A stretch of 64,000 nt of DNA, taken from Escherichia coli (GTDB taxonomy: Bacteria; Pseudomonadota; Gammaproteobacteria; Enterobacterales; Enterobacteriaceae). Positions 2,950 to 62,845 of the stretch are shown one piece after another. Under the pieces are notes generated by a model. That model saw only the letters and a program-made list of their open reading frames with translations. It was not told the DNA's origin and made no database searches. Numbering within the stretch: the stretch's first letter is position 1; each line of letters begins with the position of its first letter. The stretch is taken from NCBI RefSeq assembly GCF_001677475.2, contig NZ_CP015229.1; one strand, given 5' to 3'. The translations under genes were made by a program, and so were the position numbers.

Positions 2950-3043
2950 GCTGTTACGCCTGTTTCATTCCGCCCGATAGTAAAATTCGGGCAAAGCATC
3001 CCCGTGTAGCGCCATAAATGAGCTACAGGAGAAAAGGTTGAAA

Positions 3044-3904: not shown

Positions 3905-3909
3905 CGGTG

Positions 3910-4578: not shown

Positions 4579-4835
4579 GGTAAATCTCCTGTCTGATGTT
4601 TAAACGATCCAGTTGTTCTGAGAACGAGTATTCAGGAGAAAAGCGGCACAAAACAGGAAAAAAGTTTGCCGCACAGCAACGAAATTTTTGCATTCAGCAG
4701 GCGGCGTGATGACGAATGTGAAGGGGGTCAAATCGTGGCATACAGCAACAAAATTTTTGATGCTGTATGGTTTTGAGTTTAAAAAAATCGTTGAAATTGT
4801 GTGAGCTTAAGCACCTGAGTTAGCTGCTATGGTGG

Positions 4836-5645
4836 TTATTTTTTAACACCATACTGCTTAAACCACTCCAGCATACGCTGCCAGCCATCTTTTGCAGATG
4901 CGGCATGATAGCTCGGGCGATAATCAGCGTTGAATGCATGCCCGGCGTCCGGGTACACGATAATCTCTGCTTTCGCATTAGCAGCCCGCAGCGCCTGGCG
5001 CATGGTTTCAACGCTCTCCTGCGGAATGCTGTTATCCTGACCACCATATAAGCCGAGAACCGGCGCGTTAAGATCGGTTGCGATATCAACAGGTTGTTTC
5101 GGTGAATTCAGCGACTTATCGCCTGTCAGTTTGCCGTACCATGCCACCGCCGCTTTCAGTTGCGGGTTATGCGCAGCATACAGCCAGGTGATACGTCCAC
5201 CCCAGCAGAATCCGGTGATCATTAAACGATGAACATCGCCGCCGTTGCGGGAAGCCCAACTGGCGACATGATCGAGATCGGCCAGCACCTGCGAGTCAGG
5301 CACTTTTGCTACCAGACCGCTAAGCAACGTGGGGATATCGGCAAAATCATTCGGATCGCCTTCGCGGAAGTAAAGTTCAGGTGCGATAGCCAGATATCCC
5401 TCCAGCGCCAGACGGCGACAAATGTCGCGGATATGTTCATGCACGCCAAAAATTTCCTGCACTACAATGACCACTGGCAGTGGGCCATCGCTTTGCTTTG
5501 GTCTGGCATGGTAAGCAGGCATGTTATCCCCTTGTGAGGGGATAGAGGTGAAGCCCGCCGCAATCGCGTCGTCCGGGGTCTGAACGATGGTCGAAGCGAG
5601 AGGCGATGCAGCAGGTGCAAATCCAGATTGTTGTGTTGTTGCCAT
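4836..5645 (-). CDS. ysgA: Dienelactone hydrolase-family protein
   Basis: ORF 4836-5711; start placed at internal MATTQQSGF (about 270 aa); position upstream of udp matches K-12. Confidence 0.8.
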   Translation of the reverse strand: MATTQQSGFAPAASPLASTIVQTPDDAIAAGFTSIPSQGDNMPAYHARPKQSDGPLPVVIVVQEIFGVHEHIRDICRRLALEGYLAIAPELYFREGDPNDFADIPTLLSGLVAKVPDSQVLADLDHVASWASRNGGDVHRLMITGFCWGGRITWLYAAHNPQLKAAVAWYGKLTGDKSLNSPKQPVDIATDLNAPVLGLYGGQDNSIPQESVETMRQALRAANAKAEIIVYPDAGHAFNADYRPSYHAASAKDGWQRMLEWFKQYGVKK

Positions 5646-5765
5646 GGTATTCTCCGTACCCTTATAAAAATGTTGCGCAATGTTAACTATAGTCAGCATG
5701 CAACAAATCACATTGCCTGAATCGGCTCATCTTTTATGCAGTCCTGCAGAATGAAGAGTGATTTA

Positions 5766-5833
5766 TGTGATTTGCATCACTTTTGGTGGGTAAATTTATG
5801 CAACGCATTTGCGTCATGGTGATGAGTATCACG
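5766..5833 (+). promoter_or_regulatory. udp promoter region with two CRP-like sites about 52 bp apart
   Basis: TGTGAtttgcaTCACt at 5766-5781 and GTGAtgagtaTCAC at 5818-5833, upstream of udp. Confidence 0.6.
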
Positions 5834-5906
5834 AAAAAATGTTAAACCCTTCGGTAAAGTGTCTTTTTGCTTCTTCTGACTAAACCGATTCACAGAGGAG
5901 TTGTAT

Positions 5907-6668
5907 ATGTCCAAGTCTGATGTTTTTCATCTCGGCCTCACTAAAAACGATTTACAAGGGGCTACGCTTGCCATCGTCCCTGGCGACCCGGATCGTGTGG
6001 AAAAGATCGCCGCGCTGATGGATAAGCCGGTTAAGCTGGCATCTCACCGCGAATTCACCACCTGGCGTGCAGAGCTGGATGGTAAACCTGTTATCGTCTG
6101 CTCTACCGGTATCGGCGGCCCGTCTACCTCTATTGCTGTTGAAGAGCTGGCACAGCTGGGCATTCGCACCTTCCTGCGTATCGGTACAACGGGCGCTATT
6201 CAGCCGCATATTAATGTGGGTGATGTCCTGGTTACCACGGCGTCTGTCCGTCTGGATGGCGCGAGCCTGCACTTCGCACCGCTGGAATTCCCGGCTGTCG
6301 CTGATTTCGAATGTACGACTGCGCTGGTTGAGGCTGCGAAATCCATCGGCGCGACGACTCACGTTGGCGTGACGGCTTCTTCTGATACCTTCTACCCAGG
6401 TCAGGAACGTTACGATACTTACTCTGGTCGCGTAGTTCGTCACTTTAAAGGTTCTATGGAAGAGTGGCAGGCGATGGGCGTAATGAACTATGAAATGGAA
6501 TCTGCAACCCTGCTGACCATGTGTGCAAGTCAGGGTCTACGTGCCGGTATGGTAGCGGGTGTTATCGTTAACCGCACCCAGCAAGAGATCCCGAATGCTG
6601 AGACGATGAAACAAACTGAAAGCCAAGCGGTGAAAATCGTGGTGGAAGCGGCGCGTCGTCTGCTGTAA
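5907..6668 (+). CDS. udp: Uridine phosphorylase
   Basis: [36 protein letters not shown]-terminus; about 253 aa. Confidence 0.95.
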
Positions 6669-6686
6669 TCCTCTTCTCCTGTCTGA

Positions 6687-6717
6687 AGGCCGACGCGTTC
6701 GGCCTTTTGTATTTTTG
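6687..6717 (+). terminator. Intrinsic terminator after udp
   Basis: aaggccgacgcgttcggcctt hairpin followed by a T-rich tract. Confidence 0.7.
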
Positions 6718-6808
6718 CGTAGCGCCTCGCAGGAAATGCCTTTCCAACTGGACGTTTGTACAGCACAATTCTATTTTGTGCGGGTAAGTTGTTGCGTCAG
6801 GAGGCGTT

Positions 6809-8236
6809 GTGGATTTCTCAATCATGGTTTACGCAGTTATTGCGTTGGTGGGTGTGGCAATTGGCTGGCTGTTTGCCAGTTATCAACATGCGCAGCAAAA
6901 AGCCGAGCAATTAGCTGAACGTGAAGAGATGGTCGCGGAGTTAAGCGCGGCAAAACAACAAATTACCCAAAGTGAGCACTGGCGCGCTGAGTGCGAGTTA
7001 CTCAATAACGAAGTGCGCAGCCTGCAAAGTATTAACACCTCTCTGGAGGCCGATCTGCGTGAAGTAACCACGCGGATGGAAGCCGCACAGCAACATGCTG
7101 ACGATAAAATTCGCCAGATGATTAACAGCGAGCAGCGCCTCAGTGAGCAGTTTGAAAACCTCGCCAACCGTATTTTTGAGCACAGCAATCGCCGGGTTGA
7201 TGAGCAAAACCGTCAGAGTCTGAACAGCCTGTTGTCGCCGCTACGTGAACAACTGGACGGTTTCCGCCGTCAGGTTCAGGACAGCTTCGGTAAAGAAGCA
7301 CAAGAACGCCATACCCTGACCCACGAAATTCGCAATCTCCAGCAACTCAACGCGCAAATGGCCCAGGAGGCGATCAACCTGACGCGCGCGCTGAAAGGCG
7401 ACAATAAAACTCAGGGCAACTGGGGCGAGGTAGTATTGACGCGGGTGCTGGAGGCTTCCGGTCTGCGTGAAGGGTATGAATATGAAACCCAGGTCAGCAT
7501 CGAAAATGACGCCCGCTCGCGGATGCAGCCGGATGTCATCGTGCGGCTGCCGCAGGGAAAAGATGTGGTGATCGACGCCAAAATGACGCTGGTCGCCTAT
7601 GAACGCTATTTTAACGCCGATGACGACTACACCCGCGAAAGCGCGCTACAGGAACATATCGCGTCGGTGCGTAACCATATCCGTTTGCTGGGACGCAAAG
7701 ATTATCAACAGCTGCCGGGGCTGCGAACCCTGGATTACGTGCTGATGTTTATTCCCGTTGAACCCGCTTTTTTACTGGCGCTTGACCGCCAGCCGGAGCT
7801 GATCACCGAAGCGTTGAAAAACAATATCATGCTGGTTAGCCCGACCACGCTGCTGGTGGCGCTGCGCACTATCGCCAACCTCTGGCGCTATGAGCATCAA
7901 AGTCGTAACGCCCAGAAAATAGCCGATCACGCCAGCAAGCTGTACGACAAGATGCGTTTGTTCGTCGATGACATGTCAGCGATTGGTCAAAGTCTCGACA
8001 AAGCGCAGGATAACTACCGCCAGGCAATGAAAAAACTCTCTTCAGGTCGCGGAAATGTGCTGGCGCAGGCAGAAGCGTTCCGCGGTTTAGGAGTAGAAAT
8101 TAAACGCGAGATTAATCCGGATTTGGCTGAACAGGCGGTGAGCCAGGATGAAGAGTATCGACTTCGGTCGGTTCCGGAGCAGCCGAATGATGAAGCTTAT
8201 CAACGCGATGATGAATATAATCAGCAGTCGCGCTAG
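6809..8236 (+). CDS. rmuC: DNA recombination protein RmuC
   Basis: 475 aa ORF with N-terminal membrane anchor and long coiled-coil region; conserved position. Confidence 0.9.
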   Translation: MDFSIMVYAVIALVGVAIGWLFASYQHAQQKAEQLAEREEMVAELSAAKQQITQSEHWRAECELLNNEVRSLQSINTSLEADLREVTTRMEAAQQHADDKIRQMINSEQRLSEQFENLANRIFEHSNRRVDEQNRQSLNSLLSPLREQLDGFRRQVQDSFGKEAQERHTLTHEIRNLQQLNAQMAQEAINLTRALKGDNKTQGNWGEVVLTRVLEASGLREGYEYETQVSIENDARSRMQPDVIVRLPQGKDVVIDAKMTLVAYERYFNADDDYTRESALQEHIASVRNHIRLLGRKDYQQLPGLRTLDYVLMFIPVEPAFLLALDRQPELITEALKNNIMLVSPTTLLVALRTIANLWRYEHQSRNAQKIADHASKLYDKMRLFVDDMSAIGQSLDKAQDNYRQAMKKLSSGRGNVLAQAEAFRGLGVEIKREINPDLAEQAVSQDEEYRLRSVPEQPNDEAYQRDDEYNQQSR

Positions 8237-8330
8237 CCCATTGGGGGTAGTTAAGCCGGGTAGAAATCTAGGGCATCGACGCCCAATCTGTTACACTTCT
8301 GGAACAATTTTTTGATGAGCAGGCATTGAG

Positions 8331-9086
8331 ATGGTGGATAAGTCACAAGAAACGACGCACTTTGGTTTTCAGACCGTCGCGAAGGAACAAAAAGCGGATA
8401 TGGTCGCCCACGTTTTCCATTCCGTGGCATCAAAATACGATGTCATGAATGATTTGATGTCATTCGGTATTCATCGTTTGTGGAAGCGATTCACGATTGA
8501 TTGCAGCGGCGTACGTCGTGGGCAGACCGTGCTGGATCTGGCTGGTGGTACCGGTGACCTGACAGCGAAATTCTCCCGCCTGGTCGGTGAAACTGGCAAA
8601 GTGGTCCTTGCTGATATCAATGAATCTATGCTCAAAATGGGGCGCGAGAAACTGCGTAATATCGGCGTGATTGGCAACGTTGAGTATGTTCAGGCGAACG
8701 CCGAGGCGCTGCCGTTCCCGGATAACACCTTTGATTGCATCACCATTTCGTTTGGTCTGCGTAACGTCACCGACAAAGATAAAGCACTACGTTCAATGTA
8801 TCGCGTGCTGAAACCCGGCGGCCGCCTGCTGGTGCTTGAGTTCTCGAAACCGATTATCGAACCATTAAGCAAAGCTTATGACGCTTACTCCTTCCATGTT
8901 CTGCCGCGTATTGGCTCGCTGGTCGCGAATGACGCCGACAGCTACCGTTATCTGGCTGAATCCATCCGTATGCATCCCGATCAGGATACTCTGAAAGCCA
9001 TGATGCAAGATGCCGGATTCGAAAGTGTCGATTATTACAACCTGACGGCTGGCGTTGTGGCGCTGCATCGTGGGTATAAGTTCTGA
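8331..9086 (+). CDS. ubiE: Ubiquinone/menaquinone C-methyltransferase
   Basis: 251 aa; SAM-binding [11 protein letters not shown] motif. Confidence 0.95.
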
Positions 9087-9099
9087 CAGGAGACCGGAA

Positions 9100-11342
<2,243 letters not shown>

Positions 11343-51355: not shown

Positions 51356-52621
51356 ATGCTCACGAAAAAGAAATGGGCGTTATTTAGTCTATTAACACTG
51401 TGTGGCGGTACAATTTATAAATTACCGTCGCTGAAAGATGCGTTTTATATCCCGATGCAGGAATATTTCCATTTGACCAATGGTCAAATTGGTAATGCTA
51501 TGTCGGTAAACTCATTTGTCACCACAGTGGGCTTTTTTCTGTCTATTTATTTTGCCGATAAACTACCGCGCAGATACACCATGTCACTCTCACTCATTGC
51601 GACAGGATTACTGGGTGTTTATTTGACGACAATGCCGGGGTATTGGGGCATCCTCTTTGTCTGGGCGCTATTTGGCGTTACTTGCGACATGATGAACTGG
51701 CCGGTCTTGCTCAAGTCGGTAAGTCGATTGGGCAATAGCGAACAACAAGGTCGGTTGTTTGGCTTCTTCGAAACAGGGCGTGGCATTGTCGATACCGTGG
51801 TGGCATTTTCTGCGTTGGCAGTATTTACCTGGTTTGGCAGTGGCTTATTGGGTTTTAAAGCAGGCATCTGGTTCTATTCCCTTATTGTGATTGCCGTAGG
51901 CATTATTATTTTCTTTGTCCTGAATGACAAAGAAGAGGCACCGTCCGTTGAGGTGAAAAAAGAAGACGGAGCATCGCAAAACACCAGTATGACCTCGGTG
52001 CTGAGAGACAAAACCATCTGGCTTATCGCTTTCAACGTCTTCTTCGTTTACGCGGTTTACTGTGGCCTGACATTCTTCATTCCATTCCTGAAAAACATCT
52101 ATCTATTGCCCGTTGCGTTGGTGGGGGCTTACGGCATCATTAACCAATATTGTCTGAAAATGATTGGAGGACCGATTGGTGGCATGATTTCAGATAAGAT
52201 CCTGAAATCGCCGAGTAAATATCTATGCTACACCTTTATCATCAGTACCGCTGCGCTCGTACTGTTGATTATGCTGCCGCACGAAAGTATGCCGGTCTAT
52301 TTAGGGATGGCATGTACATTAGGCTTTGGCGCGATAGTCTTTACACAGCGAGCCGTATTTTTTGCACCTATCGGCGAAGCAAAAATTGCTGAAAATAAAA
52401 CAGGCGCGGCGATGGCGTTGGGTAGCTTTATTGGTTACGCCCCGGCGATGTTCTGCTTCAGTCTGTATGGCTACATTCTGGATTTAAATCCGGGGATTAT
52501 TGGCTACAAAATCGTGTTTGGCATTATGGCCTGCTTCGCATTCTGTGGTGCGGTGGTTTCCGTAATGCTGGTTAAGCGTATTAGCCAACGTAAGAAAGAG
52601 ATGCTGGCGGCTGAAGCTTAA
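51356..52621 (+). CDS. yihN: MFS transporter YihN
   Basis: 421 aa polytopic membrane protein. Confidence 0.85.
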   Translation: MLTKKKWALFSLLTLCGGTIYKLPSLKDAFYIPMQEYFHLTNGQIGNAMSVNSFVTTVGFFLSIYFADKLPRRYTMSLSLIATGLLGVYLTTMPGYWGILFVWALFGVTCDMMNWPVLLKSVSRLGNSEQQGRLFGFFETGRGIVDTVVAFSALAVFTWFGSGLLGFKAGIWFYSLIVIAVGIIIFFVLNDKEEAPSVEVKKEDGASQNTSMTSVLRDKTIWLIAFNVFFVYAVYCGLTFFIPFLKNIYLLPVALVGAYGIINQYCLKMIGGPIGGMISDKILKSPSKYLCYTFIISTAALVLLIMLPHESMPVYLGMACTLGFGAIVFTQRAVFFAPIGEAKIAENKTGAAMALGSFIGYAPAMFCFSLYGYILDLNPGIIGYKIVFGIMACFAFCGAVVSVMLVKRISQRKKEMLAAEA

Positions 52622-52626
52622 TTAAT

Positions 52627-52649
52627 GGCCGGATGTGCTTAATCCGGCC
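52627..52649. terminator. Hairpin between convergent yihN and the DeoR regulator gene
   Basis: ggccgga tgtgcttaa tccggcc, 7-bp stem. Confidence 0.5.
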
Positions 52650-52680
52650 AACGAAAACCGTATCAACCGAAGTTTCAATT

Positions 52681-53469
52681 TCAGGATACTTCTTGCTCAG
52701 CAACCACCAGTTCAACATTCTCTTCACTTAACAACTGGCAGAAAGAATTGGGAGGCGGGGCATCAGTAAAAAAAGCCCTGACATTCCGTGCATTGCCAAT
52801 TGAAACGGCAGCAGACGCGGCAAACTTCGTATGATCGGCCACTAACAATGTATTCCGCGCATGTTTAATCATCGTTCTTGCGACTAACGCTTCATTGACA
52901 TCAAATTCCAGTAGGGTGCCGTCATGTTCAATGGCACCTATACTGGTGATTAAATAATCTGCGCGGAAGCCTTCAATAAAATCCACGGCTCCTGGGCCGA
53001 TAATCCCGCCGTTATGAGCGCGTAAAGTGCCTCCCGGCACCATCACTTCAATATCCTGATTCTTATAAAGAATCTGTGCCACACGTAGGCTGTTAGTGAT
53101 AATGCGTAAATCACGACGGTTGAGTAATGCCCTGGCAACGGCTTCTACGGTTGTACCGATGGTGATAAAGACGGTACAGCGTTCGGGAAGGTAATCGGCG
53201 ACTGCCTCAGCGATCGCCCGTTTCTCGGCGGTGAGCGAAAGTTCCCGTTGCTCAAAAGCGGTATTCATGACGCTGGAGACGCGCCCGGCCCCTCCATGAT
53301 GACGGGTGATCAACCCCTGCTCACTGAGTTTTCGGATATCCCGGCGCACGGTTTGCGTTGAAACATCCAGCAGTTGTGCCAGTTCTTCAATATTCATATA
53401 ACCGCGTTCTGCGATTAGATGAACGAGTTGGTCATGGCGTGGATTACCTGTCACTTCGATGATACTCAT
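52681..53469 (-). CDS. DeoR-family transcriptional repressor (YihW/CsqR-like)
   Basis: 262 aa; N-terminal HTH (IEELAQLLDVSTQTVRRDIRKL) and sugar-phosphate-binding C-terminal domain; homologous but not identical to K-12 YihW as I recall it. Confidence 0.85.
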   Translation of the reverse strand: MSIIEVTGNPRHDQLVHLIAERGYMNIEELAQLLDVSTQTVRRDIRKLSEQGLITRHHGGAGRVSSVMNTAFEQRELSLTAEKRAIAEAVADYLPERCTVFITIGTTVEAVARALLNRRDLRIITNSLRVAQILYKNQDIEVMVPGGTLRAHNGGIIGPGAVDFIEGFRADYLITSIGAIEHDGTLLEFDVNEALVARTMIKHARNTLLVADHTKFAASAAVSIGNARNVRAFFTDAPPPNSFCQLLSEENVELVVAEQEVS

Positions 53470-53508
53470 GAATACTCCCTTGCCCCTCCTCGGTATATGT
53501 TTACCATT

Positions 53509-54405
53509 TTACGCATAAAGTGACAAAAATGATTCGGTTTGCTCACGATTAGGAATGCCGGCCCGACCGCCAGGCTGGGTACATTTCATCGCGGCAACCG
53601 CACTGGCAAAACGAATAGCCTCTTTTGTTGGCATTTTTTCTGCCAACGCTACCGCGAGTGCGCCGTGAAAAACATCGCCTGCTCCAGTGGTATCAACCAC
53701 ATTGACAGAAAATGCCTCCTGTTGACACAAATGATCATCTTCAATCCACAACGATCCTTCAGAACCCAGCGTAACATACACTTTACCTGCTGTTTGTGTC
53801 GTTGCCTGGAACAAACCTTCTTCAGGTGACTGCAGGCCAGTCATGCGTTTCAGCCCCGGTGTTGAGAACACGGCGTGATCGGCAAGCGCGACAAGTGGAG
53901 AAATATCCTGCGGTGTCATATCGGCGTCTAAAAGCGTTGTCACCCCCGCAAGGCGCGCTAGCGAGAATGCTTTTTCAGTACCGCTATGCCAGCGAACATC
54001 GGCCAGAATCAGATCATAACGAGAGAAATCGATCGCTTCTAACCATTCGGCATCAGTACCGAGATCGGGACTTGGATAATTAACGATAATCCGTTCGCCA
54101 TGCTGATCAACGAGGATCGCTGATTGCGACGAACGGGCGTTAGGATATCGGCGGCAAAATGCGGTATTGACGCCCCAACCCTCAAGTTCTGCAAGTAAGG
54201 TATTTCCACAACTGTCATCGCCGACGCGACCGATGAAATCAACCTCCACGCCAAGCTTTGCGATTGCAACAGCGGCTGTTGCTGCCGGGCCGCCACCAAT
54301 CTCAAGATAATGATTTGCCTGATATTTCCCGCCGCCATCCGGCAGAGTGAGCAAAGAATAAATCCTGTCCTGAACTGTGATACCCACGCATGCAATTTTT
54401 GTCAT
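53509..54405 (-). CDS. PfkB-family sugar kinase (YihV-like)
   Basis: Start at [16 protein letters not shown]; [11 protein letters not shown] and [12 protein letters not shown] motifs; ORF track extends to 54456. Confidence 0.85.
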
Positions 54406-54577
54406 ATTTGTCTTGTCCTGTTTAATTTTGTCGTCTTTGGTCAATTTAAATGACACAAATGATCAAATTAGTGATGTGTGTCGTGTTTTTGAACATAAAT
54501 TACAAATATGCTCAAAAACAGACGAAAACGAATTTTCAATTGTCATTATTTTGTCAATGTCAGACAGGAGAGTATTC

Positions 54578-55456
54578 ATGGCAACCATTGCATTTCTCGG
54601 GCTGGGGCAGATGGGTAGCCCAATGGCTAACAATCTATTGCGAAAAGGGCATTCATTGCAGGTATTTGATGTCAATGCACAGGCCGTCGATGCGCTAGTT
54701 ACGCAGGGGGCCACTGCGGCACAAACCCCAGCGGAAGCGGCAGCAGGCGCTGAATTTATCATCACTATGCTTCCCAATGGTGACATTGTTCGACAGGTTC
54801 TGTTGGGGGAAAAAGGCGTCTGTGAGGCTGTTTCATCTGACGCGTTATTGATTGATATGTCGACTATTCATCCCTTACAGACCGATGCATTAATACGGGA
54901 GTTACAAGAAAAAGGCATCAGTATGATGGACGCCCCCGTGGGCAGAACATCCGTGAATGCGATTGATGGCACATTGCTGATTTTAGCGGGTGGCACTGAT
55001 GAGCAGATTGCGCGTGCACGCCCGATTCTCATGTGCATGGGTAATGAGCTGGTCGAGGCTGGCGGCCCAGGAATGGGGATCCGCGTGAAGCTAATTAACA
55101 ACTATATGAGCATTGCGCTTAATGCGCTGTCCTCCGAGGCCGCTGTGTTATGTGAGTCACTGGGATTAAATCTTGATGTCGCAATTAAGGTGATGAGTGG
55201 TACGGCAGCAGGGAAAGGACATTTTACGACCACCTGGCCTGGCAAAGTGCTGAAAGGCGATCTTTCACCCGCCTTCATGGTGGATCTGGCGTTGAAAGAT
55301 CTGCGTATTGCAGTTGACGTCGCTCGGGAGACGGGGGCACCGCTCAATATGGGGATTGCAGCAGAAAGTTATTACGCCGCAGCAAGTCAAGACGGCAAAG
55401 GGCGGCAGGACTGGAGCGCCCTGCTAAATCAGGTTCGCCAGCAGGCTGGTCTTTAA
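54578..55456 (+). CDS. NAD-dependent beta-hydroxyacid dehydrogenase-family reductase (YihU-like)
   Basis: Start at [20 protein letters not shown] (Rossmann GLGQMG) with RBS caggagag upstream; about 292 aa. Confidence 0.85.
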
Positions 55457-55480
55457 TTTTATCTATTAACAGGAGTTTCT

Positions 55481-56368
55481 ATGTCATCCCACTTCACCCC
55501 ATTTACGCTGAAAGATATCTCCCGCCCAGGTGGTGGATTCGCCATGTTAGCTGTCGATCAGCGTGAGGCCATGCGCCTGATGTTTGCGGCAGCAGGGCAG
55601 CCCAAACCCATCGCCGACAGTGTACTCACCGATTTTAAAGTTGCCGCGACCCGAATCCTTTCTCCTTATGCTTCTGCCGTTCTGGCGGATAAACAATTTT
55701 GTCTTGAGCAAATAGTCGAGCAGGGCGCTGTTGCTAATTCTTGCGGCCTGATTGTCGCTGCCGATCTTTTTATCCCAGGTAATGGCATCCCGGTTGATAG
55801 CGTTGAAATAGATATGTCCGTCGACCCGCATAAAGCCCGTGAAATGGGGGCTAAGGCAATGAAATTACTTGTACTCTGGCGTGAAGATGAACCCGCAGAG
55901 GAACGTCTGGCAATGGTTGATAAATTTGTTCGTCGCTGCCGTAGTGCCGGACTGGTTAGCATTATTGAACCTGTGGTGCGTCCACCTCGTCGCGGTTGGG
56001 ACTTTGATCGTGAAAGCGCCATTGCCGCGGCCGCCGCAGAGCTTGGTGGAACAGAGGCTGATCTTTACAAAGCCGAGATGCCATTAGGGGGCAAAGGCGA
56101 TGAAAAAACCTTACTTGCCGCCTGTCAGCAACTTAACGATCAGATGAAGATGCCGTGGGTAATTCTTTCTTCTGGCGTTGATGCCGATATTTTTGGCCGT
56201 GCAGTAAGTATTGCCATGAAAGGTGGGGCGTCGGGCTTCCTGGCTGGACGAGCGGTTTGGGCGTCGGTTGTTGGTGCACAAGATCCACAAACTATGCTGC
56301 GCGATGTCTCCGTTCCACGCTTGCAACGGCTGGCTGAAATTGTCGATGAAGGTATCGCGCAACGCTAA
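55481..56368 (+). CDS. Class I (LacD-like) ketose-phosphate aldolase (YihT-like)
   Basis: 295 aa; [14 protein letters not shown] and [12 protein letters not shown] motifs. Confidence 0.85.
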
Positions 56369-56400
56369 TCCCCTATGGATATCGATTCTGGAGAATAACA

Positions 56401-57411
56401 ATGGATAAAAGTACCCAGGTTTTATTTTCAGATATTGGGAAAGTCACCACTCAATATGTTGAAGTACCACACCAGGAACTTAAACCGCACGAAGTGCGGA
56501 TTGCGCCTGTGTTCTATGGGATATGCGGTTCGGATCTGCATGTTCTGAAAGGCGGTCATCCGTTTGCCAAACCACCTGTCGTCCCCGGTCATGAAATTGC
56601 AGCGCGCGTTGCGGAAGTTGGCAGCGACGTTAAAAATGTACAGCCGGGCGATCATGTTGTGGTCGATCCCATCATGGCTTGCATGGAATGCCGAGCCTGC
56701 AAAGCAGGACGTTTTAATCTTTGTGAACCACCGCAGGTTGCTGGTTTTCGCGCACCGGGCTTTGCTCGCTCACAACACATTGTTCCTGCGCGTAATTGCC
56801 ATGTCGCACCAGCCTCTTTACCGCTAAAAGTGTTAGCCTTTGCCGAACCGGCGGCTTGTGCTCGTCACTGCGTTAACCGAATGCCGAAAGCTTCTCTGGA
56901 AAGCGTACTGGTGATTGGTGCCGGAACGATAGGCTTATCCATCGTGCAGGCACTGCGCATTATGGGGGCAGGTAAGATTACCGTGATTGAACCTGACGCT
57001 GCCAAACGCGCGCTGGCGTTAAAGCTGGGCGCAGCAGAAGTTTGGGCACCAGGTGAGCTGGCCGCAGATGTGCGATTTACGGGGGCGATTGATGTCGTTG
57101 CAGCGCAGGCCACGCTTAACGATGCATGTACCCGTGTATATGCCGGAGGCACCGTCGTGTGCATGGGCGTACCAAGTGGGCCGCGTGAAATACCATTACC
57201 TATGATGCAACGTTTCGAGCGTGACTTGCTCAACTCTGGCATGTACATCCCTGAAGATTTCGATGCTGTTATCGAATGGCTGGCGGATGGGCGGTTTGAT
57301 ACCAGTGAACTGGTTACCGATTTATTTGCCATTGAGGATGCAGCGGCGGCATTCGAACGCGCGCAGCAAAATGACTCCATAAAGGTCATGCTGCAATTTG
57401 CGCCGGAATGA
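56401..57411 (+). CDS. Zinc-dependent medium-chain dehydrogenase/reductase
   Basis: 336 aa; catalytic-zinc GHE motif (PVVPGHEIAARV), four-cysteine structural zinc cluster (CMECRACKAGRFNLC), Rossmann VIGAGTIGL. Confidence 0.85.
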   Translation: MDKSTQVLFSDIGKVTTQYVEVPHQELKPHEVRIAPVFYGICGSDLHVLKGGHPFAKPPVVPGHEIAARVAEVGSDVKNVQPGDHVVVDPIMACMECRACKAGRFNLCEPPQVAGFRAPGFARSQHIVPARNCHVAPASLPLKVLAFAEPAACARHCVNRMPKASLESVLVIGAGTIGLSIVQALRIMGAGKITVIEPDAAKRALALKLGAAEVWAPGELAADVRFTGAIDVVAAQATLNDACTRVYAGGTVVCMGVPSGPREIPLPMMQRFERDLLNSGMYIPEDFDAVIEWLADGRFDTSELVTDLFAIEDAAAAFERAQQNDSIKVMLQFAPE

Positions 57412-57480
57412 TTTTCTAAATCTCTGTCTGGCGCTGCGTCACGTCAGCGCCACCCTACAACAATTAAAAAGGACACTGCG

Positions 57481-58914
57481 ATGAGTCAAATCACCAGTCC
57501 TGCAACTTATTCAATTAGTCGGCCACAGGACGTAATTGATATTGTTAATAAGAACTCTGCAATCAACACCAGTATCGGCGTTATTTTTATTGCTTTGGGC
57601 GGCATATTGATTGATGCCTACCAGGCGGCGATGGTGGGGTTTGGTAATAAATACATTGCCGCTCAATTCGGCATTTCGCCGGGTCTTGCTGCAACCGTCA
57701 ATGCATCAGTATTAATCGCCGCGTTAATTGGCGGTTTATTAGCGAACCGAGTAATAAACCGCTTTGGGCAAAAGCGGGCATTTATTATTGGCATGGGGCT
57801 GTGCACCATCGGTGCTGCAGCGGTAGCTATTGCTCCCAGTATCTGGTGGGTGCTGGTGTGCCGCGTCATCATGGGCTTTGGTTTAGGCATCGACTTCCCT
57901 TTGGCAACCAATGCCGTGGCAGAGCTTCGTGGTTCAACGTCGAAGAAAACCGGAACGTCGGTCAACCTCTGGCAAATGGCCTGGTATGTTTCGACAACCG
58001 TTGTTTATTTGGTGCTTTTGCCGCTGCTTCTGTCGGGTATCGCTGAAGAACAATTGTGGCGTTACGGAATATTCATCGGAGCTATTTTTGCAGTCATCTT
58101 CATGATTTTGCGTTACTTCTTTATTGGTGAATCCGCAATGTGGGCTGCACGCGTCGGGCGTTACCAGGAAGCGTGCGACATTCTGGGAAAACGTTATGGT
58201 GTTCAGGCTCGCGTTGCGGCATCGGGTACAACAGAAGCGAAATTCTCGGAAAAAGCAGAGAATAAATACAGTGGTGGATATGGCATCTTATTTAATGATC
58301 GTTACCGCAAACGCACCATTCTTGGTTGTGTCGTGGCAACCATGCAGGCGTGGCAATATAACGCCGTAGGTGTTTATCTTCCTCTTACGTTGGCGGGAAT
58401 AATAAGTGGCGGGCTTACTGGCGCGTTGACCGGTTCTGCCGTCGTGAATGCCCTTTGTGGGGTGACAGGTGGGATGATCGGCTCGTTTATTCTCCAACGA
58501 CTGGGTACTCGCCGACAGTCGATGTATGGATTTGCTGTTGTGACCTTAGCATTGCTGTCGTTAGGCGCACTGGCAACGACTAATCCCTGGCTGTCTTTAG
58601 GGTTATTGGGATCAATTATTTTCTTCCATTCAGCGGGTCCTGGTGGGCTGGGCATGACCATTGCCACACTCTCTTATCCTCCCGCTATTCGTCCTACTGG
58701 GGTCGGATTTGCCCGCGCTATTATGCGCACAGGGGCAATTGCAGGACTCATTTTCTGGCCGATGCTGTGGGGTACGTTGAAAACTGAAGCGTTTTATTGG
58801 TTGGCAATTGTGCCATTCCTGGGGTTCCTGACCTGCGTATTGATTAATTGGGAACCTTTGGGAGCAAATGTTGATGCTGAGGATGCAGAGGTTCTGGCTG
58901 AATTGAAGAAATAA
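57481..58914 (+). CDS. MFS transporter, subfamily unclear
   Basis: 477 aa polytopic membrane protein with a central hydrophilic loop. Confidence 0.8.
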   Translation: MSQITSPATYSISRPQDVIDIVNKNSAINTSIGVIFIALGGILIDAYQAAMVGFGNKYIAAQFGISPGLAATVNASVLIAALIGGLLANRVINRFGQKRAFIIGMGLCTIGAAAVAIAPSIWWVLVCRVIMGFGLGIDFPLATNAVAELRGSTSKKTGTSVNLWQMAWYVSTTVVYLVLLPLLLSGIAEEQLWRYGIFIGAIFAVIFMILRYFFIGESAMWAARVGRYQEACDILGKRYGVQARVAASGTTEAKFSEKAENKYSGGYGILFNDRYRKRTILGCVVATMQAWQYNAVGVYLPLTLAGIISGGLTGALTGSAVVNALCGVTGGMIGSFILQRLGTRRQSMYGFAVVTLALLSLGALATTNPWLSLGLLGSIIFFHSAGPGGLGMTIATLSYPPAIRPTGVGFARAIMRTGAIAGLIFWPMLWGTLKTEAFYWLAIVPFLGFLTCVLINWEPLGANVDAEDAEVLAELKK

Positions 58915-58951
58915 ATTAATGCGCATCGGCTTAAACCGATGCGCATTAATT
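58914..58951. repeat. 16-bp perfect inverted repeat (stem-loop or operator)
   Basis: aattaatgcgcatcgg cttaaa ccgatgcgcattaatt, starting at the stop codon of the upstream transporter gene. Confidence 0.8.
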
Positions 58952-59012
58952 CAAACTGCCCACGTTTAGTGGTTCGTATCCCAGATTTCTCGCCTACCAG
59001 GAGAGGAAAATT

Positions 59013-60362
59013 ATGTCTGAAAAGTTACCCGCACCGCGTGAAGGGCTTTCCGGTAAAGCCATGAGACGTGTCGTTATGGGCAGTTTCGCAGGCGCGTTAA
59101 TGGAATGGTATGACTTCTTTATTTTTGGCACGGCAGCAGGACTGGTATTTGCACCGCTGTTTTATCCAGACAGCGATCCTTTTATAGGTCTTATAGCTTC
59201 CTTTGCGACCTTTGGTGTCGGTTTTCTGACTCGTCCTTTAGGTGGCATCGTCTTTGGTCATTTTGGCGATAAAATCGGGCGAAAAATAACACTTATCTGG
59301 ACGCTGGCTATTGTCGGTTGCTCCACATTTTTGATTGGTTTTATTCCGACGTATCAGGAAATTGGCATTTGGGCACCGCTTGTATTAATGGTGCTGCGTT
59401 TGATTCAGGGCTTTGGTCTTGGTGGCGAGTACGGCGGAGCGGCATTGATGACCATAGAATCAGCGCCCGAATCCCGACGCGGATTTTTAGGTTCACTCCC
59501 GCAAACGGCTGCGTCTGTGGGTATTATGCTGGCAACCGGTATTTTTGCTCTCTGTAACCATTTTCTTACTTCGGAGCAGTTTCTCTCCTGGGGATGGCGC
59601 ATTCCGTTTTGGCTTTCTGCGGTGATGTTGATCGTTGGGCTGTTTATCCGCCTGCATACCGAAGAAACGCTGGATTTTCAAAAGCAAAAAACGACGAATA
59701 ATAAAGAAAAGTCCGTTCCTCCGTTGATTGAATTATTCAAAAAACATCCACGAAATATTTTATTGGCACTGGGTGCGAGGCTGGCGGAAAGTGTCTCCTC
59801 TAATATTATTAACGCCTTTGGTATTGTCTATATTTCCAGCCAATTAGCATTGTCGCGAGATATTCCCCTGACGGGTATGTTGATTGCCTCGGCGATCGGT
59901 ATTTTCAGTTGTCCATTGGTTGGATGGTTATCAGATCGTATAGGTCAAAAAAGTCTGTATTTGTCGGGAGCAGGATTTTGTGTCCTGTTCGCGTTTCCTT
60001 TCTTCTTATTACTGGATAGCAAAAGTACGCTCATCATCTGGTGCAGTATGATCCTCGGCTACAACTTAGGTCCGACGATGATGTTTGCCGTGCAGCCAAC
60101 ACTTTTCACCCGCATGTTCGGTACCAAAGTACGATATACCGGCCTTTCTTTTGCTTATCAATTTTCCGCGATTCTTGGCGGACTAAGCCCCCTTATCGCC
60201 TCAAGTTTGCTGGCGCTAGGGGGAGGAAAACCGTGGTATGTCGCTCTGTTTTTATTTGCTGTCTCAGTTCTTTCCTTTGTTTGCGTCTGGCTGATTGAGC
60301 CGACCGATGAACAAGAAACCGCTTCTTACCGCTACATCAGGGAACAATCTCATGAAAACTGA
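59013..60362 (+). CDS. MFS transporter of metabolite:H+ symporter type (ProP/KgtP/ShiA-like)
   Basis: 449 aa; WYDFFIFG and GLGGEYGGAALM signature segments. Confidence 0.8.
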   Translation: MSEKLPAPREGLSGKAMRRVVMGSFAGALMEWYDFFIFGTAAGLVFAPLFYPDSDPFIGLIASFATFGVGFLTRPLGGIVFGHFGDKIGRKITLIWTLAIVGCSTFLIGFIPTYQEIGIWAPLVLMVLRLIQGFGLGGEYGGAALMTIESAPESRRGFLGSLPQTAASVGIMLATGIFALCNHFLTSEQFLSWGWRIPFWLSAVMLIVGLFIRLHTEETLDFQKQKTTNNKEKSVPPLIELFKKHPRNILLALGARLAESVSSNIINAFGIVYISSQLALSRDIPLTGMLIASAIGIFSCPLVGWLSDRIGQKSLYLSGAGFCVLFAFPFFLLLDSKSTLIIWCSMILGYNLGPTMMFAVQPTLFTRMFGTKVRYTGLSFAYQFSAILGGLSPLIASSLLALGGGKPWYVALFLFAVSVLSFVCVWLIEPTDEQETASYRYIREQSHEN

Positions 60363-61239
60363 ACGAAAAAACGAGCATTACCTGGCGCTACAACAGGCGT
60401 TTGACGCGCCATGGCCTGGGCCTGTAGGAGAGTTAGTGACGCTGGAAAAAGGCAATATTCACCTGCAGATTTATCCGCATGATGGTGCCAGGATAACCTC
60501 GTTAAAGGCATTTGGTTCTGAAGTATTACGCCAATGGCAGCCGCAGCGCAGAGCTTTTCAGTATGGCTGTTTCCCAATGGTGCCGTGGGCAGGGCGACTG
60601 GGGAATGCGACGCTGAATGCTGGTGGGCAATGTTATTCTTTACCCGCCAATAAACCACCACATGCGTTGCATGGTATGGCTTGTTACTCAACGTGGGAAA
60701 TCATCGACAAAACAATAGATTCCCTGACTTTACGTATGCCCCTGGCTTCACCGTGGCCCTGGCAAGGGGAAGTGATTCAGACTTTTTTGCTGGAGAACGA
60801 TGCGCTGGTTTTGCAACTGGAAATCCATTCACATACCGATACATTCCCGGCCTCTGCAGGCTGGCATCCGTGGTTTGCGAAAAAGCTGACTCCGCAAAAT
60901 ACAGAATCGTTGCAGGTGCTTTTTGATGCGGACTGGCAAGAGGAAGCGGGTAGTGATGAACTGCCAACTGGAAATCGCATCTCTCCTCAAGCTGGTCCCT
61001 GGGATGACTGTTTTGGTTTTTATGACGGGGTGAAGGTTAAGTTACTGTGGCCTGGTAAACTCACGATGACCATGACCTCTTCTGCAAACAGTCTGGTGGT
61101 ATTTGATAAACAGCCCGATGCCACCTGTGTTAATCCGCTTACTCAGGCACCTAACGCAATAAATCTAACGCCGGAATTGGTGACATCAGATAAGCCGCTG
61201 GTCATCGAAACTCGTTGGCAATTTACACCTGAATCTTAA
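60352..61239 (+). CDS. Aldose 1-epimerase family protein (YihR-like mutarotase)
   Basis: Start at MKTERKNEHYLALQQAFD, overlapping the upstream transporter stop by 11 nt; ORF track starts at 60295. Confidence 0.75.
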   Translation: MKTERKNEHYLALQQAFDAPWPGPVGELVTLEKGNIHLQIYPHDGARITSLKAFGSEVLRQWQPQRRAFQYGCFPMVPWAGRLGNATLNAGGQCYSLPANKPPHALHGMACYSTWEIIDKTIDSLTLRMPLASPWPWQGEVIQTFLLENDALVLQLEIHSHTDTFPASAGWHPWFAKKLTPQNTESLQVLFDADWQEEAGSDELPTGNRISPQAGPWDDCFGFYDGVKVKLLWPGKLTMTMTSSANSLVVFDKQPDATCVNPLTQAPNAINLTPELVTSDKPLVIETRWQFTPES

Positions 61240-61249
61240 CCATTCATCT

Positions 61250-61290
61250 ATTGCGAAAAAGCCAGTGAAATTACTCTGCTTTTTCGCAAT
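61250..61290. repeat. 13-bp perfect inverted repeat with 15-nt loop
   Basis: attgcgaaaaagc cagtgaaattactct gctttttcgcaat, 11 nt after the mutarotase stop. Confidence 0.75.
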
Positions 61291-61379
61291 CAGCATCACA
61301 AGATTACCCTTATTGCCACATAGCCAAACCCATCCTTTCCCGCTACAGTTAATTTCTTGTGGCGCGAAAGGAGGCAAAA

Positions 61380-61979
61380 ATGCTCTATATCTTTGATTTA
61401 GGTAATGTGATTGTCGATATCGACTTTAACCGTGTGCTGGGAGCCTGGAGCGATTTAACGCGTATTCCGCTGGCATCTCTTAAGAAGAGTTTTCATATGG
61501 GGGAGGCGTTTCATCAGCATGAGCGTGGGGAAATTAGCGACGAAGCGTTCGCAGAGGCGCTGTGTCATGAGATGGCTCTACCGCTAAGCTACGAGCAGTT
61601 CTCCCACGGTTGGCAGGCAGTGTTTGTCGCGCTGCGCCCGGAAGTGATCGCCATCATGCATAAACTGCGTGAGCAGGGGCATCGCGTGGTGGTGCTTTCC
61701 AATACCAACCGCCTGCATACCACCTTCTGGCCGGAAGAATACCCGGAAATTCGTGATGCTGCTGACCATATCTATCTGTCGCAAGATCTGGGGATGCGCA
61801 AACCTGAAGCACGAATTTACCAGCATGTTTTGCAGGCGGAAGGTTTTTCACCCAGCGATACGGTCTTTTTCGACGATAACGCCGATAATATAGAAGGAGC
61901 CAATCAGCTGGGCATTACCAGCATTCTGGTGAAAGATAAAACCACCATCCCGGACTATTTCGCGAAGGTGTTATGCTAA
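61380..61979 (+). CDS. yihX: HAD-family alpha-D-glucose-1-phosphate phosphatase YihX
   Basis: Start at [16 protein letters not shown] (199 aa); HAD motif I. Confidence 0.9.
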
Positions 61980-62845
61980 AAACCATTCAGGACAAAGCCA
62001 GGCACCGTACCCGTCCACTATGGGCCTGGCTAAAACTACTCTGGCAACGCATTGATGAGGACAACATGACAACCCTGGCAGGTAACCTTGCCTATGTGTC
62101 GTTGCTCTCATTAGTGCCGCTGGTTGCCGTTGTTTTTGCGCTTTTCGCCGCTTTTCCCATGTTTTCCGACGTCAGCATTCAGTTGCGTCACTTTATTTTT
62201 GCCAACTTTCTGCCTGCTACTGGCGATGTTATTCAGCGGTATATCGAACAATTTGTTGCCAATTCCAACAAGATGACCGCCGTTGGCGCGTGCGGGCTGA
62301 TCGTCACAGCGCTATTGTTGATGTACTCCATCGATAGCGCGTTGAATACCATCTGGCGCAGTAAACGAGCGCGACCAAAAATTTACTCGTTTGCCGTGTA
62401 CTGGATGATTTTAACGCTGGGGCCGCTGCTGGCAGGGGCCAGTCTGGCGATCAGTTCCTATTTGCTCTCCCTGCGCTGGGCGAGCGATCTCAATACTGTC
62501 ATCGACAACGTGCTGCGTATTTTTCCGTTGCTGTTGTCGTGGATCTCCTTCTGGTTGCTGTACAGCATTGTTCCTACCATCCGCGTACCTAACCGCGACG
62601 CGATTGTCGGCGCGTTTGTCGCCGCGCTCCTGTTCGAAGCAGGAAAGAAAGGTTTCGCGCTTTATATCACCATGTTCCCGTCATATCAGCTCATTTACGG
62701 TGTGCTGGCGGTGATCCCCATTCTCTTCGTCTGGGTCTACTGGACATGGTGTATCGTCTTGCTTGGCGCGGAAATTACTGTCACTCTCGGGGAATACCGC
62801 AAACTAAAACAAGCTGCTGAACAAGAAGAAGACGACGAACCATGA
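61973..62845 (+). CDS. yihY: YihY/BrkB-family inner membrane protein
   Basis: 290 aa polytopic membrane protein; overlaps the yihX stop. Confidence 0.9.

What the first reader, a model, noticed from the sequence alone, without database searches (positions are those of the whole stretch)
60352..60362. Transporter and mutarotase genes overlap by 11 nt
The mutarotase ATG at 60352 lies inside the last codons of the transporter gene, whose stop is at 60360-60362. This suggests translational coupling between uptake and anomer conversion of the incoming sugar. The ORF track offers an earlier start at 60295, but the MKTERKNEHY start gives a more typical mutarotase N-terminus.
Basis: seen in the sequence. 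Interest (0 to 1): 0.25.

Follow-up and report, generated by a model that had tools for sequence, protein, structure and literature searches.

The report
Ordinary 11-base overlap of operon genes
A transporter gene and the mutarotase-like gene after it in this E. coli operon do overlap by 11 bases, but the overlap is routine, already annotated in public genomes, and not kept in related species.

Summary
The MFS transporter ORF (59013..60362) ends at TGA 60360-60362. The downstream PF01263 epimerase-like gene starts at ATG 60352, so 11 nt are shared (ATGAAAACTGA).

- All homologues begin at this Met.
- In seven orthologous loci, in-frame stops just upstream leave no start codon before the homologous ATG.
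- TTG 60295 is TTA in the closest relative.
- Only 60352 has a Shine-Dalgarno-like site (AGGGAA, -5.1 kcal/mol).

RefSeq annotates the same geometry, and the junction is at least 99% identical in 1342 of 5426 complete E. coli genomes.

Translational coupling is plausible but not shown, and it is not conserved. Across the window and 15 orthologous loci the junction ranges from -11 to +84 nt. The conserved element is the epimerase's initiation region, while the stop of the transporter's variable tail drifts.

Two labels need correcting:
- The protein is not a YihR orthologue (27% identity). Asn261 replaces the catalytic Glu of mutarotases.
- The transporter belongs to the metabolite:H+ symporter type, and its direction of transport is unknown.

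The pair sits in a conserved, uncharacterised eight-gene sulfosugar-like module. The literature calls this module the truncated 'short yih cassette'.

Low interest; already known.

The parts
59013..60362 (+). MFS transporter gene ('MFS2', 449 aa), metabolite:H+ symporter type; its hydrophilic C-terminal tail ...IEPTDEQETASYRYIREQSHEN runs over the start of the next gene
   Evidence: ORF list; Pfam Sugar_tr/MFS_1; NCBIfam best matches are shikimate transporter 409.7 bits and TIGR00883 406.8 bits, both below cut-off; annotated 'MFS transporter' in RefSeq
60352..61239 (+). Aldose-1-epimerase-family (PF01263) gene, 295 aa, start ATG 60352; His107, His172 and Asp218 are present, but Asn261 (AAT 61132-61134) sits where mutarotases have the catalytic Glu
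   Evidence: AlphaFold2 model pLDDT 94 with mutarotase fold; RefSeq WP_001298595.1 (295 aa), annotated with the same -11 geometry in strain 2014C-4423
60352..60362 (+). The 11-nt overlap ATGAAAACTGA (downstream ATG to upstream TGA)
   Evidence: same geometry in L003, L005, L008, L009 and L010
60339..60344 (+). Shine-Dalgarno-like AGGGAA inside the transporter coding region, 7-8 nt before ATG 60352
   Evidence: Duplex with the 16S 3' end ACCUCCUUA -5.1 kcal/mol, against -1.9 (60307) and -1.5 (60295); conserved purine block TCAGnGAA in alignment A4
60295..60309 (+). Rejected alternative starts: TTG 60295-60297 and ATG 60307-60309
   Evidence: TTG is TTA in Escherichia sp. L003; in-frame stops lie between these positions and the homologous ATG in L004, L006, L008, L010, L011, L012 and L013; no SD; no homologue carries the extension
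58914..59008 (+). MFS1-MFS2 spacer with two conserved hairpins: a 16-bp stem right after the MFS1 stop (58914-58951) and a stem pairing UUUCUC with the MFS2 SD GGAGAGG (58986-59008). This sets MFS2 and the epimerase gene apart as a sub-unit of the operon
   Evidence: Fold -38 kcal/mol, z -5.6; present in orthologues; consensus structure with 5 compensatory pairs
52681..58914 (.). Rest of the module: DeoR regulator (52681-53469, -), PfkB kinase (53509-54405, -), SLA-reductase-like (54578-55456, +), class I aldolase (55481-56368, +), Zn-dependent dehydrogenase (56401-57411, +), MFS1 (57481-58914, +)
   Evidence: same order in RefSeq genomes and in other genera
61250..61290 (+). Strong hairpin after the epimerase stop, in the 140-nt gap before yihX; probable end of the operon
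   Evidence: Fold -45.3 kcal/mol for 61230-61385, z -5.9

Best explanation
This is a genuine but ordinary operon-internal junction. The epimerase-like gene starts at ATG 60352, 11 nt before the TGA of the preceding MFS transporter gene. Shown: the coordinates, the start-codon assignment, the invariance within E. coli, and the variability of the junction between genera. Inferred: the overlap exists because the transporter's poorly conserved cytoplasmic tail reads through the epimerase's translation-initiation region (SD-like AGGGAA plus ATGAA) until the next in-frame stop. That stop drifts in evolution, while the initiation region is what is conserved. Ribosomes finishing the transporter 8 nt downstream of the ATG probably help initiation at the modest SD, by termination-reinitiation or by keeping the site unfolded. 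The downstream gene can probably also initiate on its own, and precise coupling is not a conserved requirement. The pair is the last two genes of a conserved module that shares a kinase, an aldolase and a reductase with the sulfoquinovose (sulfo-EMP) pathway, all with intact sulfonate-binding residues. The module has a Zn-dehydrogenase, two anion-type MFS transporters and this atypical epimerase-like protein in place of YihS, YihQ, YihR, YihO and YihP.
For: Geometry. Start: all 33 family homologues in alignment A1 begin at the Met equivalent to 60352, with the conserved block ALQQAFDxPWPGP just after it. In-frame stops upstream of the homologous ATG, with no other start codon, occur in seven loci; TTG 60295 is TTA in L003. 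SD energy is -5.1 kcal/mol for 60352 against -1.9 and -1.5 for the alternatives, and an SD-like block is present in every orthologue. YihR residue 18 aligns with residue 26 of the short form. Annotation and population. Drift of the stop: junctions are -11 (window, L003, L005, L008, L009, L010), -4 (L011, L014), +2, +4, +15, +19, +30 (two loci), +38 and +84. In alignment A4 the island TCAGnGAA...ATGAA stays aligned even where the transporter stops 30 nt earlier. Operon context: no promoter-like or terminator-like site at the junction; the other gaps in the cluster are 24-98 nt. Module conservation. Sulfonate-binding residues: K27/N109/R138 in the kinase, K193/R253 in the aldolase, R123/N174/S178 in the reductase, as defined in PMC8006165.
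Against: There is no direct measurement of translation here (no ribosome profiling or N-terminal data), so how much coupling contributes is unknown. The -11 arrangement recurs in six of the 16 sequences compared (window plus 15 loci), across several genera, together with a semi-conserved tail (YRYIREQSHEN / YHFLRKQSHEQ). Some selection on the overlapped arrangement in that clade therefore cannot be excluded. Annotated starts of homologues come from gene callers and are not independent evidence; the in-frame stops are.
Confidence: 0.8

Rival explanations
1. One reading: the overlap is a selected device that couples synthesis of a sugar importer to that of the mutarotase acting on the imported sugar.
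For: Same strand, -11 overlap, and only a modest SD lying inside the upstream gene. The arrangement is fixed in E. coli and shared with five loci from other genera. MFS2's own SD is sequestered in a conserved hairpin, so the two genes could be controlled as one unit. PMC5902678 discusses mutarotases re-equilibrating anomers after import.
Against: The junction is +15 to +84 nt in six orthologous loci, distances at which reinitiation is almost abolished in tested E. coli pairs. Tight overlaps are enriched for subunits of complexes, and nothing found here suggests this pair forms one. The catalytic Glu is Asn, so mutarotase activity is itself unproven. Which of the two MFS proteins imports and which exports is unknown.
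Confidence: 0.2
2. The protein starts earlier (TTG 60295 or ATG 60307), giving a 56-68 nt overlap and a 15-19 aa N-terminal extension.
For: The ORF is open from 60295. ATG 60307 is conserved in Escherichia sp. L003. One gene call in a public assembly (P0115) used the MNKKPLL... start.
Against: No homologue has the extension. In-frame stops exclude it in seven orthologous loci, and TTG is TTA in L003. There is no SD (-1.5 and -1.9 kcal/mol). PGAP uses 60352.
Confidence: 0.03
3. The overlap is an artefact: a sequencing or frameshift error lengthened the transporter ORF.
For: None found. Some strains do carry damaged copies of neighbouring genes (MFS1 frameshift; fusion and frameshift variants P0033 and P0081).
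Against: The junction is at least 99% identical in 1342 independent complete genomes. The same -11 geometry occurs in Citrobacter sedlakii, Phytobacter, Erwinia typographi and Enterobacter.
Confidence: 0.01
4. The downstream product is not a working mutarotase. It is a mutarotase-fold protein with another role (sugar binding, or a different isomerisation) in an uncharacterised sulfosugar pathway.
For: Asn261 aligns with YihR's Glu in GLAVEP, a motif that matches GalM's GLALES around Glu309, and with the CPEP and CIEP Glu of 4BZF and 3OS7. PMC5902678 names this Glu as a catalytic residue conserved in all hexose mutarotases. E304Q and E304A mutants of L. lactis GalM were made to probe it (entries listed). 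Among 111 homologues the column holds N in 73, E in 36 and A in 1, with at least 6 switches on a tree. The NCBIfam aldose-1-epimerase equivalog is failed. The cluster lacks the YihS isomerase and was not induced by SQ in Nissle 1917 (PMC12608037).
Against: The fold, both His residues and Asp218 are intact. Glu and Asn forms occur in the same gene context, which fits a function that tolerates either residue. No biochemical data exist.
Confidence: 0.4

Closest known systems
Short same-strand gene overlaps with termination-reinitiation coupling (Huber et al. 2019, 2023; PMC6728339, PMC10666635)
   Same: Co-directional genes on one transcript, the downstream start lying inside the upstream ORF, and an overlap in the favoured phase (-8, -11, -14).
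   Different: -11 lies just outside the -8 to +10 window those authors treat as predictive. The pair is not a known protein complex. The junction is not conserved between genera.
galK-galM in the E. coli gal operon
   Same: A mutarotase-family gene is the last gene of a sugar operon and overlaps the preceding gene (7 nt in K-12).
   Different: The upstream gene is a kinase, not a transporter. GalM has the catalytic Glu309, whereas the protein here has Asn.
E. coli K-12 YihR (putative sulfoquinovose mutarotase) in the long yih cassette
   Same: The same Pfam family (PF01263) and the same chromosomal neighbourhood (next to yihT/U/V/W homologues and yihX).
   Different: Only 27% identity. It fails NCBI's aldose-1-epimerase equivalog model, the only NCBIfam hit. 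Glu is replaced by Asn. K-12 yihR does not overlap its neighbours (gaps of 113 and 198 nt) and follows the isomerase gene, not a transporter gene.
'Short yih cassette' (yihTUVW) of E. coli Nissle 1917 and many pathogenic strains (Kaznadzey et al. 2025, PMC12608037)
   Same: The same locus: reversed orientation relative to K-12, 67-72% identity of YihT/U/V/W, present in about a quarter of E. coli genomes.
   Different: The paper treats the cassette as truncated and says it found no yihR homologue. It does not mention the dehydrogenase, the two MFS genes or the epimerase-like gene that follow yihT. These genes are conserved with it across genera.

Membership tests
Overlapping co-directional gene pair coupled by termination-reinitiation | Same strand, with the downstream start inside or next to the upstream stop | tested here: met
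   ATG 60352, TGA 60360-60362
Overlapping co-directional gene pair coupled by termination-reinitiation | Distance within the window associated with efficient reinitiation (-8 to about +10 nt) | tested here: not met
   -11 nt, just outside; long overlaps are about four-fold rarer, although the -11 phase is favoured (PMC10666635)
Overlapping co-directional gene pair coupled by termination-reinitiation | The arrangement is conserved in orthologues | tested here: not met
   -11 in 6 of the 16 sequences compared (window plus 15 loci); the others range from -4 to +84 nt
Overlapping co-directional gene pair coupled by termination-reinitiation | Downstream translation depends on upstream translation | not testable with these tools
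   Needs reporter fusions or ribosome profiling
Aldose 1-epimerase / mutarotase (PF01263) | Domain match above the Pfam gathering score, and a mutarotase fold | tested here: met
   79.4 bits against a cut-off of 27; AlphaFold2 pLDDT 94; Foldseek TM 0.73-0.80 to 3NRE, 4BZE and 1L7K
Aldose 1-epimerase / mutarotase (PF01263) | The two conserved His residues (GalM His104 and His175) | tested here: met
   His107 and His172, invariant in 111 homologues
Aldose 1-epimerase / mutarotase (PF01263) | The conserved catalytic Glu (GalM Glu309, HsSQM Glu254) | tested here: not met
   Asn261 (AAT 61132-61134) in the column of YihR's GLAVEP Glu; that motif matches GalM's GLALES around Glu309. The profile column also aligns with the Glu of 4BZF and 3OS7. 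The Glu's role is from PMC5902678. The direct alignments to GalM stop before Glu309, so that link rests on the motif match
YihR-type sulfoquinovose mutarotase (orthologue of K-12 YihR) | Scores above the cut-off of NCBI's aldose-1-epimerase equivalog model, or shows high identity to YihR | tested here: not met
   PRK15172 33.8 bits against a cut-off of 251; 27% identity over 164 residues
Sulfo-EMP1 gene cluster (PF01263 + PF07221 + PF00294 + PF01791, as defined in PMC10665668) | SQ isomerase (PF07221, YihS) is present | tested here: not met
   No YihS, YihQ, YihO, YihP or OmpL homologue anywhere in the 64-kb window
Sulfo-EMP1 gene cluster (PF01263 + PF07221 + PF00294 + PF01791, as defined in PMC10665668) | SF kinase, SFP aldolase and SLA reductase with sulfonate-binding residues | tested here: met
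   K27/N109/R138; K193/R253; R123/N174/S178; the reductase passes the NCBIfam equivalog model (580 bits against 348); residues as defined in PMC8006165
Metabolite:H+ symporter family of MFS transporters (TIGR00883) | Score above the subfamily cut-off | tested here: inconclusive
   406.8 bits against a cut-off of 443.45; the best equivalog model (shikimate transporter) scores 409.7 against 538; the general MFS and Sugar_tr Pfam models are passed

The most novel reading that the evidence does not exclude
The overlapping pair is the tail of a self-contained, horizontally mobile eight-gene module: DeoR regulator, SF-kinase-like, SLA-reductase-like, class I or class II aldolase, Zn-dehydrogenase, two anion-type MFS transporters, and a mutarotase-fold protein that toggles between Glu and Asn at the catalytic-base position. 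On this reading the module encodes an undescribed route feeding a sulfonated sugar other than sulfoquinovose, or sulfoquinovose by a route without the isomerase, into sulfofructose-1-phosphate cleavage. The published 'truncated short yih cassette' of Nissle 1917, CFT073 and about a quarter of E. coli would then be a complete pathway of unknown substrate, and the 'mutarotase' would work non-canonically.
Probability: 0.35. Interest if true: 0.55.

Novelty: already known. Interest (0 to 1): 0.12.

Why it matters
The overlap itself matters little. It confirms a start codon that public annotation already uses, and it illustrates how overlaps arise when a stop codon drifts across the next gene's initiation region. 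The context is the useful by-product. About a quarter of E. coli genomes, including CFT073, and Nissle 1917 according to the literature, carry a conserved module here instead of the K-12 sulfoquinovose genes. The literature calls that module a truncated cassette. Its epimerase-like protein lacks the catalytic glutamate of mutarotases. Calling the gene 'yihR' or 'mutarotase', and reasoning about anomer conversion from that name, is therefore unsafe.

Tried and rejected
1. RNA structure that might link the two genes: 60290-60410 folds no better than shuffles (z +0.59), so there is no structure-based coupling signal.
2. Promoter and terminator scan of 52000-62500: nothing at the junction, and fewer promoter-like sites than in shuffles.
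3. SD scoring with a 13-nt 16S tail gave a misleading -5.9 kcal/mol for ATG 60307, through pairing with GAUCA outside the CCUCC core. It was redone with the 9-nt core.
4. Literature searches for the module (sulfolactaldehyde reductase + aldose 1-epimerase + MFS + alcohol dehydrogenase) and for sulfonated alditols or ketoses found nothing relevant.
5. The supplement of PMC12608037 lists no aldose-1-epimerase among genes that respond to SQ in Nissle 1917.
6. The gene context of the actinobacterial (Glu-type) homologues in Streptomyces sp. SirexAA-E is unrelated (aminotransferases, spermidine synthase, class II FBP aldolase) and gave no functional hint.
7. The HMM and hhalign alignments to E. coli GalM stop before Glu309, because GalM has a longer loop there. 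The Glu column was therefore assigned from the YihR alignment (YihR's GLAVEP matches GalM's GLALES), B. subtilis GalM and 3OS7.

Full report
**The observation**

The window is E. coli-type chromosome: an rrn operon, Spot 42, CsrC, glnALG, typA, yihLMN ... yihX-yihY-dtd. The ORF 59013..60362 encodes a 449-aa MFS transporter that ends ...YRYIREQSHEN followed by TGA at 60360-60362. In the +2 frame, ATG 60352 opens MKTERKNEHYLALQQAFDAPWPGP... and runs to 61239. The shared stretch is ATGAAAACTGA, 11 nt. The mechanical ORF list extends the downstream ORF to TTG 60295, and a further in-frame ATG lies at 60307.

**Which start codon is used**

Four lines of evidence agree on 60352.

- Homologue lengths. 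A database search with the long (314-aa) form found 446 homologues. Nearly all full-length ones are 288-309 aa and cover 89-95% of the query, so they lack the first 19 residues.
- Homologue N-termini. In an alignment of 33 of them (43-75% identity) every sequence begins at the Met equivalent to 60352. The nearly invariant block F-D-x-x-W-x-G-P follows within 25 residues, which rules out any start further downstream.
- In-frame stops. These do not depend on gene callers. In the orthologous loci from Citrobacter Cu233 and MGH106, Phytobacter, Enterobacter sp. 10-1, Trabulsiella, Budvicia and Pantoea, an in-frame stop lies between the position of the upstream candidates and the homologous ATG, with no other start codon. 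In the closest relative (Escherichia sp., 94% identity) TTG 60295 is TTA.
- Shine-Dalgarno pairing. Against the core 3' end of this window's own 16S rRNA, the score is -5.1 kcal/mol for 60352 (AGGGAA at 60339-60344), -1.9 for 60307 and -1.5 for 60295. A purine-rich SD-like block sits 3-9 nt before the homologous ATG in every orthologue.

K-12 YihR residue 18 aligns with residue 26 of the short form. RefSeq/PGAP uses the same start and the same -11 geometry.

**Artefact or chance?**

A 241-nt query across the junction is at least 99% identical in all 1342 complete E. coli genomes that have it, out of 5426. This rules out a sequencing error.

The overlap is not statistically remarkable. In 2.66 million co-directional gene pairs, -4, -1 and -8 dominate. 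Longer overlaps are about four-fold rarer, and among them the -8, -11, -14 phase is several-fold favoured (PMC10666635). In this same window yihX/yihY overlap by 7 nt and yihY/dtd by 4 nt. In K-12, galK/galM overlap by 7 nt.

**How the overlap behaves in evolution**

The gene order reductase-aldolase-dehydrogenase-MFS1-MFS2-epimerase is largely conserved in Citrobacter, Phytobacter, Erwinia typographi, Enterobacter, Trabulsiella, Edaphovirga, Budvicia, Pantoea, Pleomorphomonas (Alphaproteobacteria) and Sutterella (Betaproteobacteria).

The MFS2-epimerase junction is not conserved. Counting the window and 15 orthologous loci:

| Junction (nt) | Where |
|---|---|
| -11 | window, L003, L005, L008, L009, L010 |
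| -4 | L011, L014 |
| +2, +4, +15, +19, +38, +84 | one locus each |
| +30 | two loci (Citrobacter Cu233 and MGH106) |

A DNA alignment shows a conserved island, TCAGnGAA followed by ATGAA. This is the epimerase's initiation region. It stays aligned even in the two Citrobacter loci where the transporter stops 30 nt earlier. The transporter's tail after the last membrane segment (...VWLIEP) varies in length and sequence.

The simplest reading is that the initiation region is the constrained element, and the overlap appears or disappears as the stop codon of a dispensable tail drifts.

**Translational coupling**

Coupling is plausible. The two genes share a strand, no promoter-like or terminator-like site lies at the junction, the SD is only moderate, and ribosomes terminate 8 nt past the ATG.

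Nothing indicates that coupling is required:
- The junction RNA is unstructured (z +0.59).
- Six orthologues have gaps of 15-84 nt. In tested E. coli pairs, gaps of about 20 nt almost abolish reinitiation.
- Tight overlaps are enriched for subunits of complexes, and nothing found here suggests this pair forms one.

One point favours treating the pair as a unit. The 98-nt MFS1-MFS2 spacer carries a conserved 16-bp hairpin and a conserved stem that pairs the MFS2 SD (GGAGAGG) with UUUCUC.

**What the two genes are**

The transporter passes the general MFS models. It is closest to the metabolite:H+ symporter subfamily and the shikimate transporter model, but scores below both cut-offs. MFS1 is closest to aromatic-acid:H+ symporters. 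Which of the two imports a substrate and which exports a product cannot be told from sequence.

The downstream protein is a confident mutarotase fold (pLDDT 94; TM 0.73-0.80 to 3NRE, B. subtilis GalM and L. lactis GalM) and passes Pfam PF01263. It is not a YihR orthologue: identity is 27%, and NCBI's aldose-1-epimerase equivalog model, the only NCBIfam hit, gives 33.8 bits against a cut-off of 251.

His107, His172 and Asp218 are invariant. The column that holds the catalytic Glu holds Asn261 here (ATCVNPLTQAPN; codon AAT 61132-61134). That column is occupied by:
- the Glu in K-12 YihR's GLAVEP, a motif that matches E. coli GalM's GLALES around Glu309;
- the CPEP and CIEP Glu of 4BZF and 3OS7.

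The direct HMM and hhalign alignments to GalM stop before Glu309, so the GalM link rests on this motif match.

PMC5902678 describes this Glu, together with the two His residues, as conserved in all hexose mutarotases and as an acid/base catalyst. Among 111 homologues the column is N in 73, E in 36 and A in 1, with at least six switches on a neighbour-joining tree. 'Anomer conversion' is therefore an assumption, not a finding.

**Context**

The locus is the variant that Kaznadzey et al. (PMC12608037) call the 'short yih cassette (yihTUVW)'. They describe it as truncated, not induced by sulfoquinovose in Nissle 1917, and without detectable homologues of yihO, yihP, yihQ, yihR or yihS. The paper does not mention the four genes that follow yihT.

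The window has no homologue of OmpL, YihO, YihP, YihQ or YihS. The sulfonate-binding residues defined in PMC8006165 are nonetheless intact in the kinase (K27/N109/R138), the aldolase (K193/R253) and the reductase (R123/N174/S178).

In Budvicia a class II aldolase replaces the class I enzyme within the same module, and an integrase gene flanks it. The module therefore looks like a complete, mobile pathway for an unidentified, probably sulfonated, substrate. This is a lead, not a result.

**Verdict**

Coupling is possible but neither shown nor conserved. The names 'YihR' and 'mutarotase' overstate what is known. The overlap is ordinary and already annotated.

Noticed in passing
window 61132-61134 (codon 261 of the gene at 60352..61239): Asn (AAT) occupies the position of the catalytic Glu of mutarotases. 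Across 111 homologues this column holds N in 73, E in 36 and A in 1, with at least 6 switches on a tree and no Asp or Lys, although going from Glu to Asn takes two base changes.
   Followed up: partly
window 52681-61239: The published 'short yih cassette' is an eight-gene module that also contains a Zn-dehydrogenase, two MFS genes and an epimerase-like gene. It is largely conserved across Gamma-, Alpha- and Betaproteobacteria, has intact sulfonate-binding residues in the kinase, aldolase and reductase, and has no isomerase or sulfoquinovosidase. Its substrate is unknown.
   Followed up: partly
window 58914-59008: The MFS1-MFS2 spacer holds a perfect 16-bp hairpin right after the MFS1 stop and a second conserved stem that pairs the MFS2 Shine-Dalgarno sequence GGAGAGG with UUUCUC (z -5.6). 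Both recur in other genera with some compensatory changes. They may act as a translational or mRNA-stability control point inside the operon.
   Followed up: partly
window 61250-61290: A strong hairpin (AUUGCGAAAAAGC...GCUUUUUCGCAAU) lies just after the epimerase stop, in the 140-nt gap before yihX (z -5.9 for 61230-61385). The simple scan did not flag it as a terminator.
   Followed up: no
L012 (Budvicia diplopodorum) 413-10918: The same module, but with a class II (PF01116) aldolase in place of the class I YihT-like enzyme. A phage-type integrase gene lies at one end and lptF/G at the other, which suggests a mobile island and non-orthologous displacement of the aldolase.
   Followed up: partly
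L001 7586-9015; proteins P0033, P0081, P0115: Decayed copies exist. MFS1 is frameshifted in strain 2014C-4423. P0033 fuses the N-terminal part of the dehydrogenase to the epimerase from residue ~98 onwards, consistent with a deletion of about 3.9 kb removing both MFS genes. P0081 and P0115 are frameshifted or rearranged epimerase genes.
   Followed up: no
window 54377-54578 and 61359-61380: The mechanical ORF list over-extends two neighbouring genes. The reductase is listed from GTG 54377, but the homology-supported and annotated start is ATG 54578. yihX is listed from GTG 61359, but K-12 YihX matches from ATG 61380.
   Followed up: partly
window 61973-61979 and 62842-62845; L083 4832-4838: Other short overlaps nearby: yihX/yihY by 7 nt and yihY/dtd by 4 nt (ATGA). 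In K-12, galK/galM overlap by 7 nt. These are useful comparators showing that such junctions are routine.
   Followed up: yes
window 58900-61400: The best complete-genome match over these 2.5 kb is only 99.3% identical, although the 241-nt junction is 100% identical to many strains. The window's strain is not among the complete RefSeq genomes, or this stretch is a recombinant mosaic.
   Followed up: no
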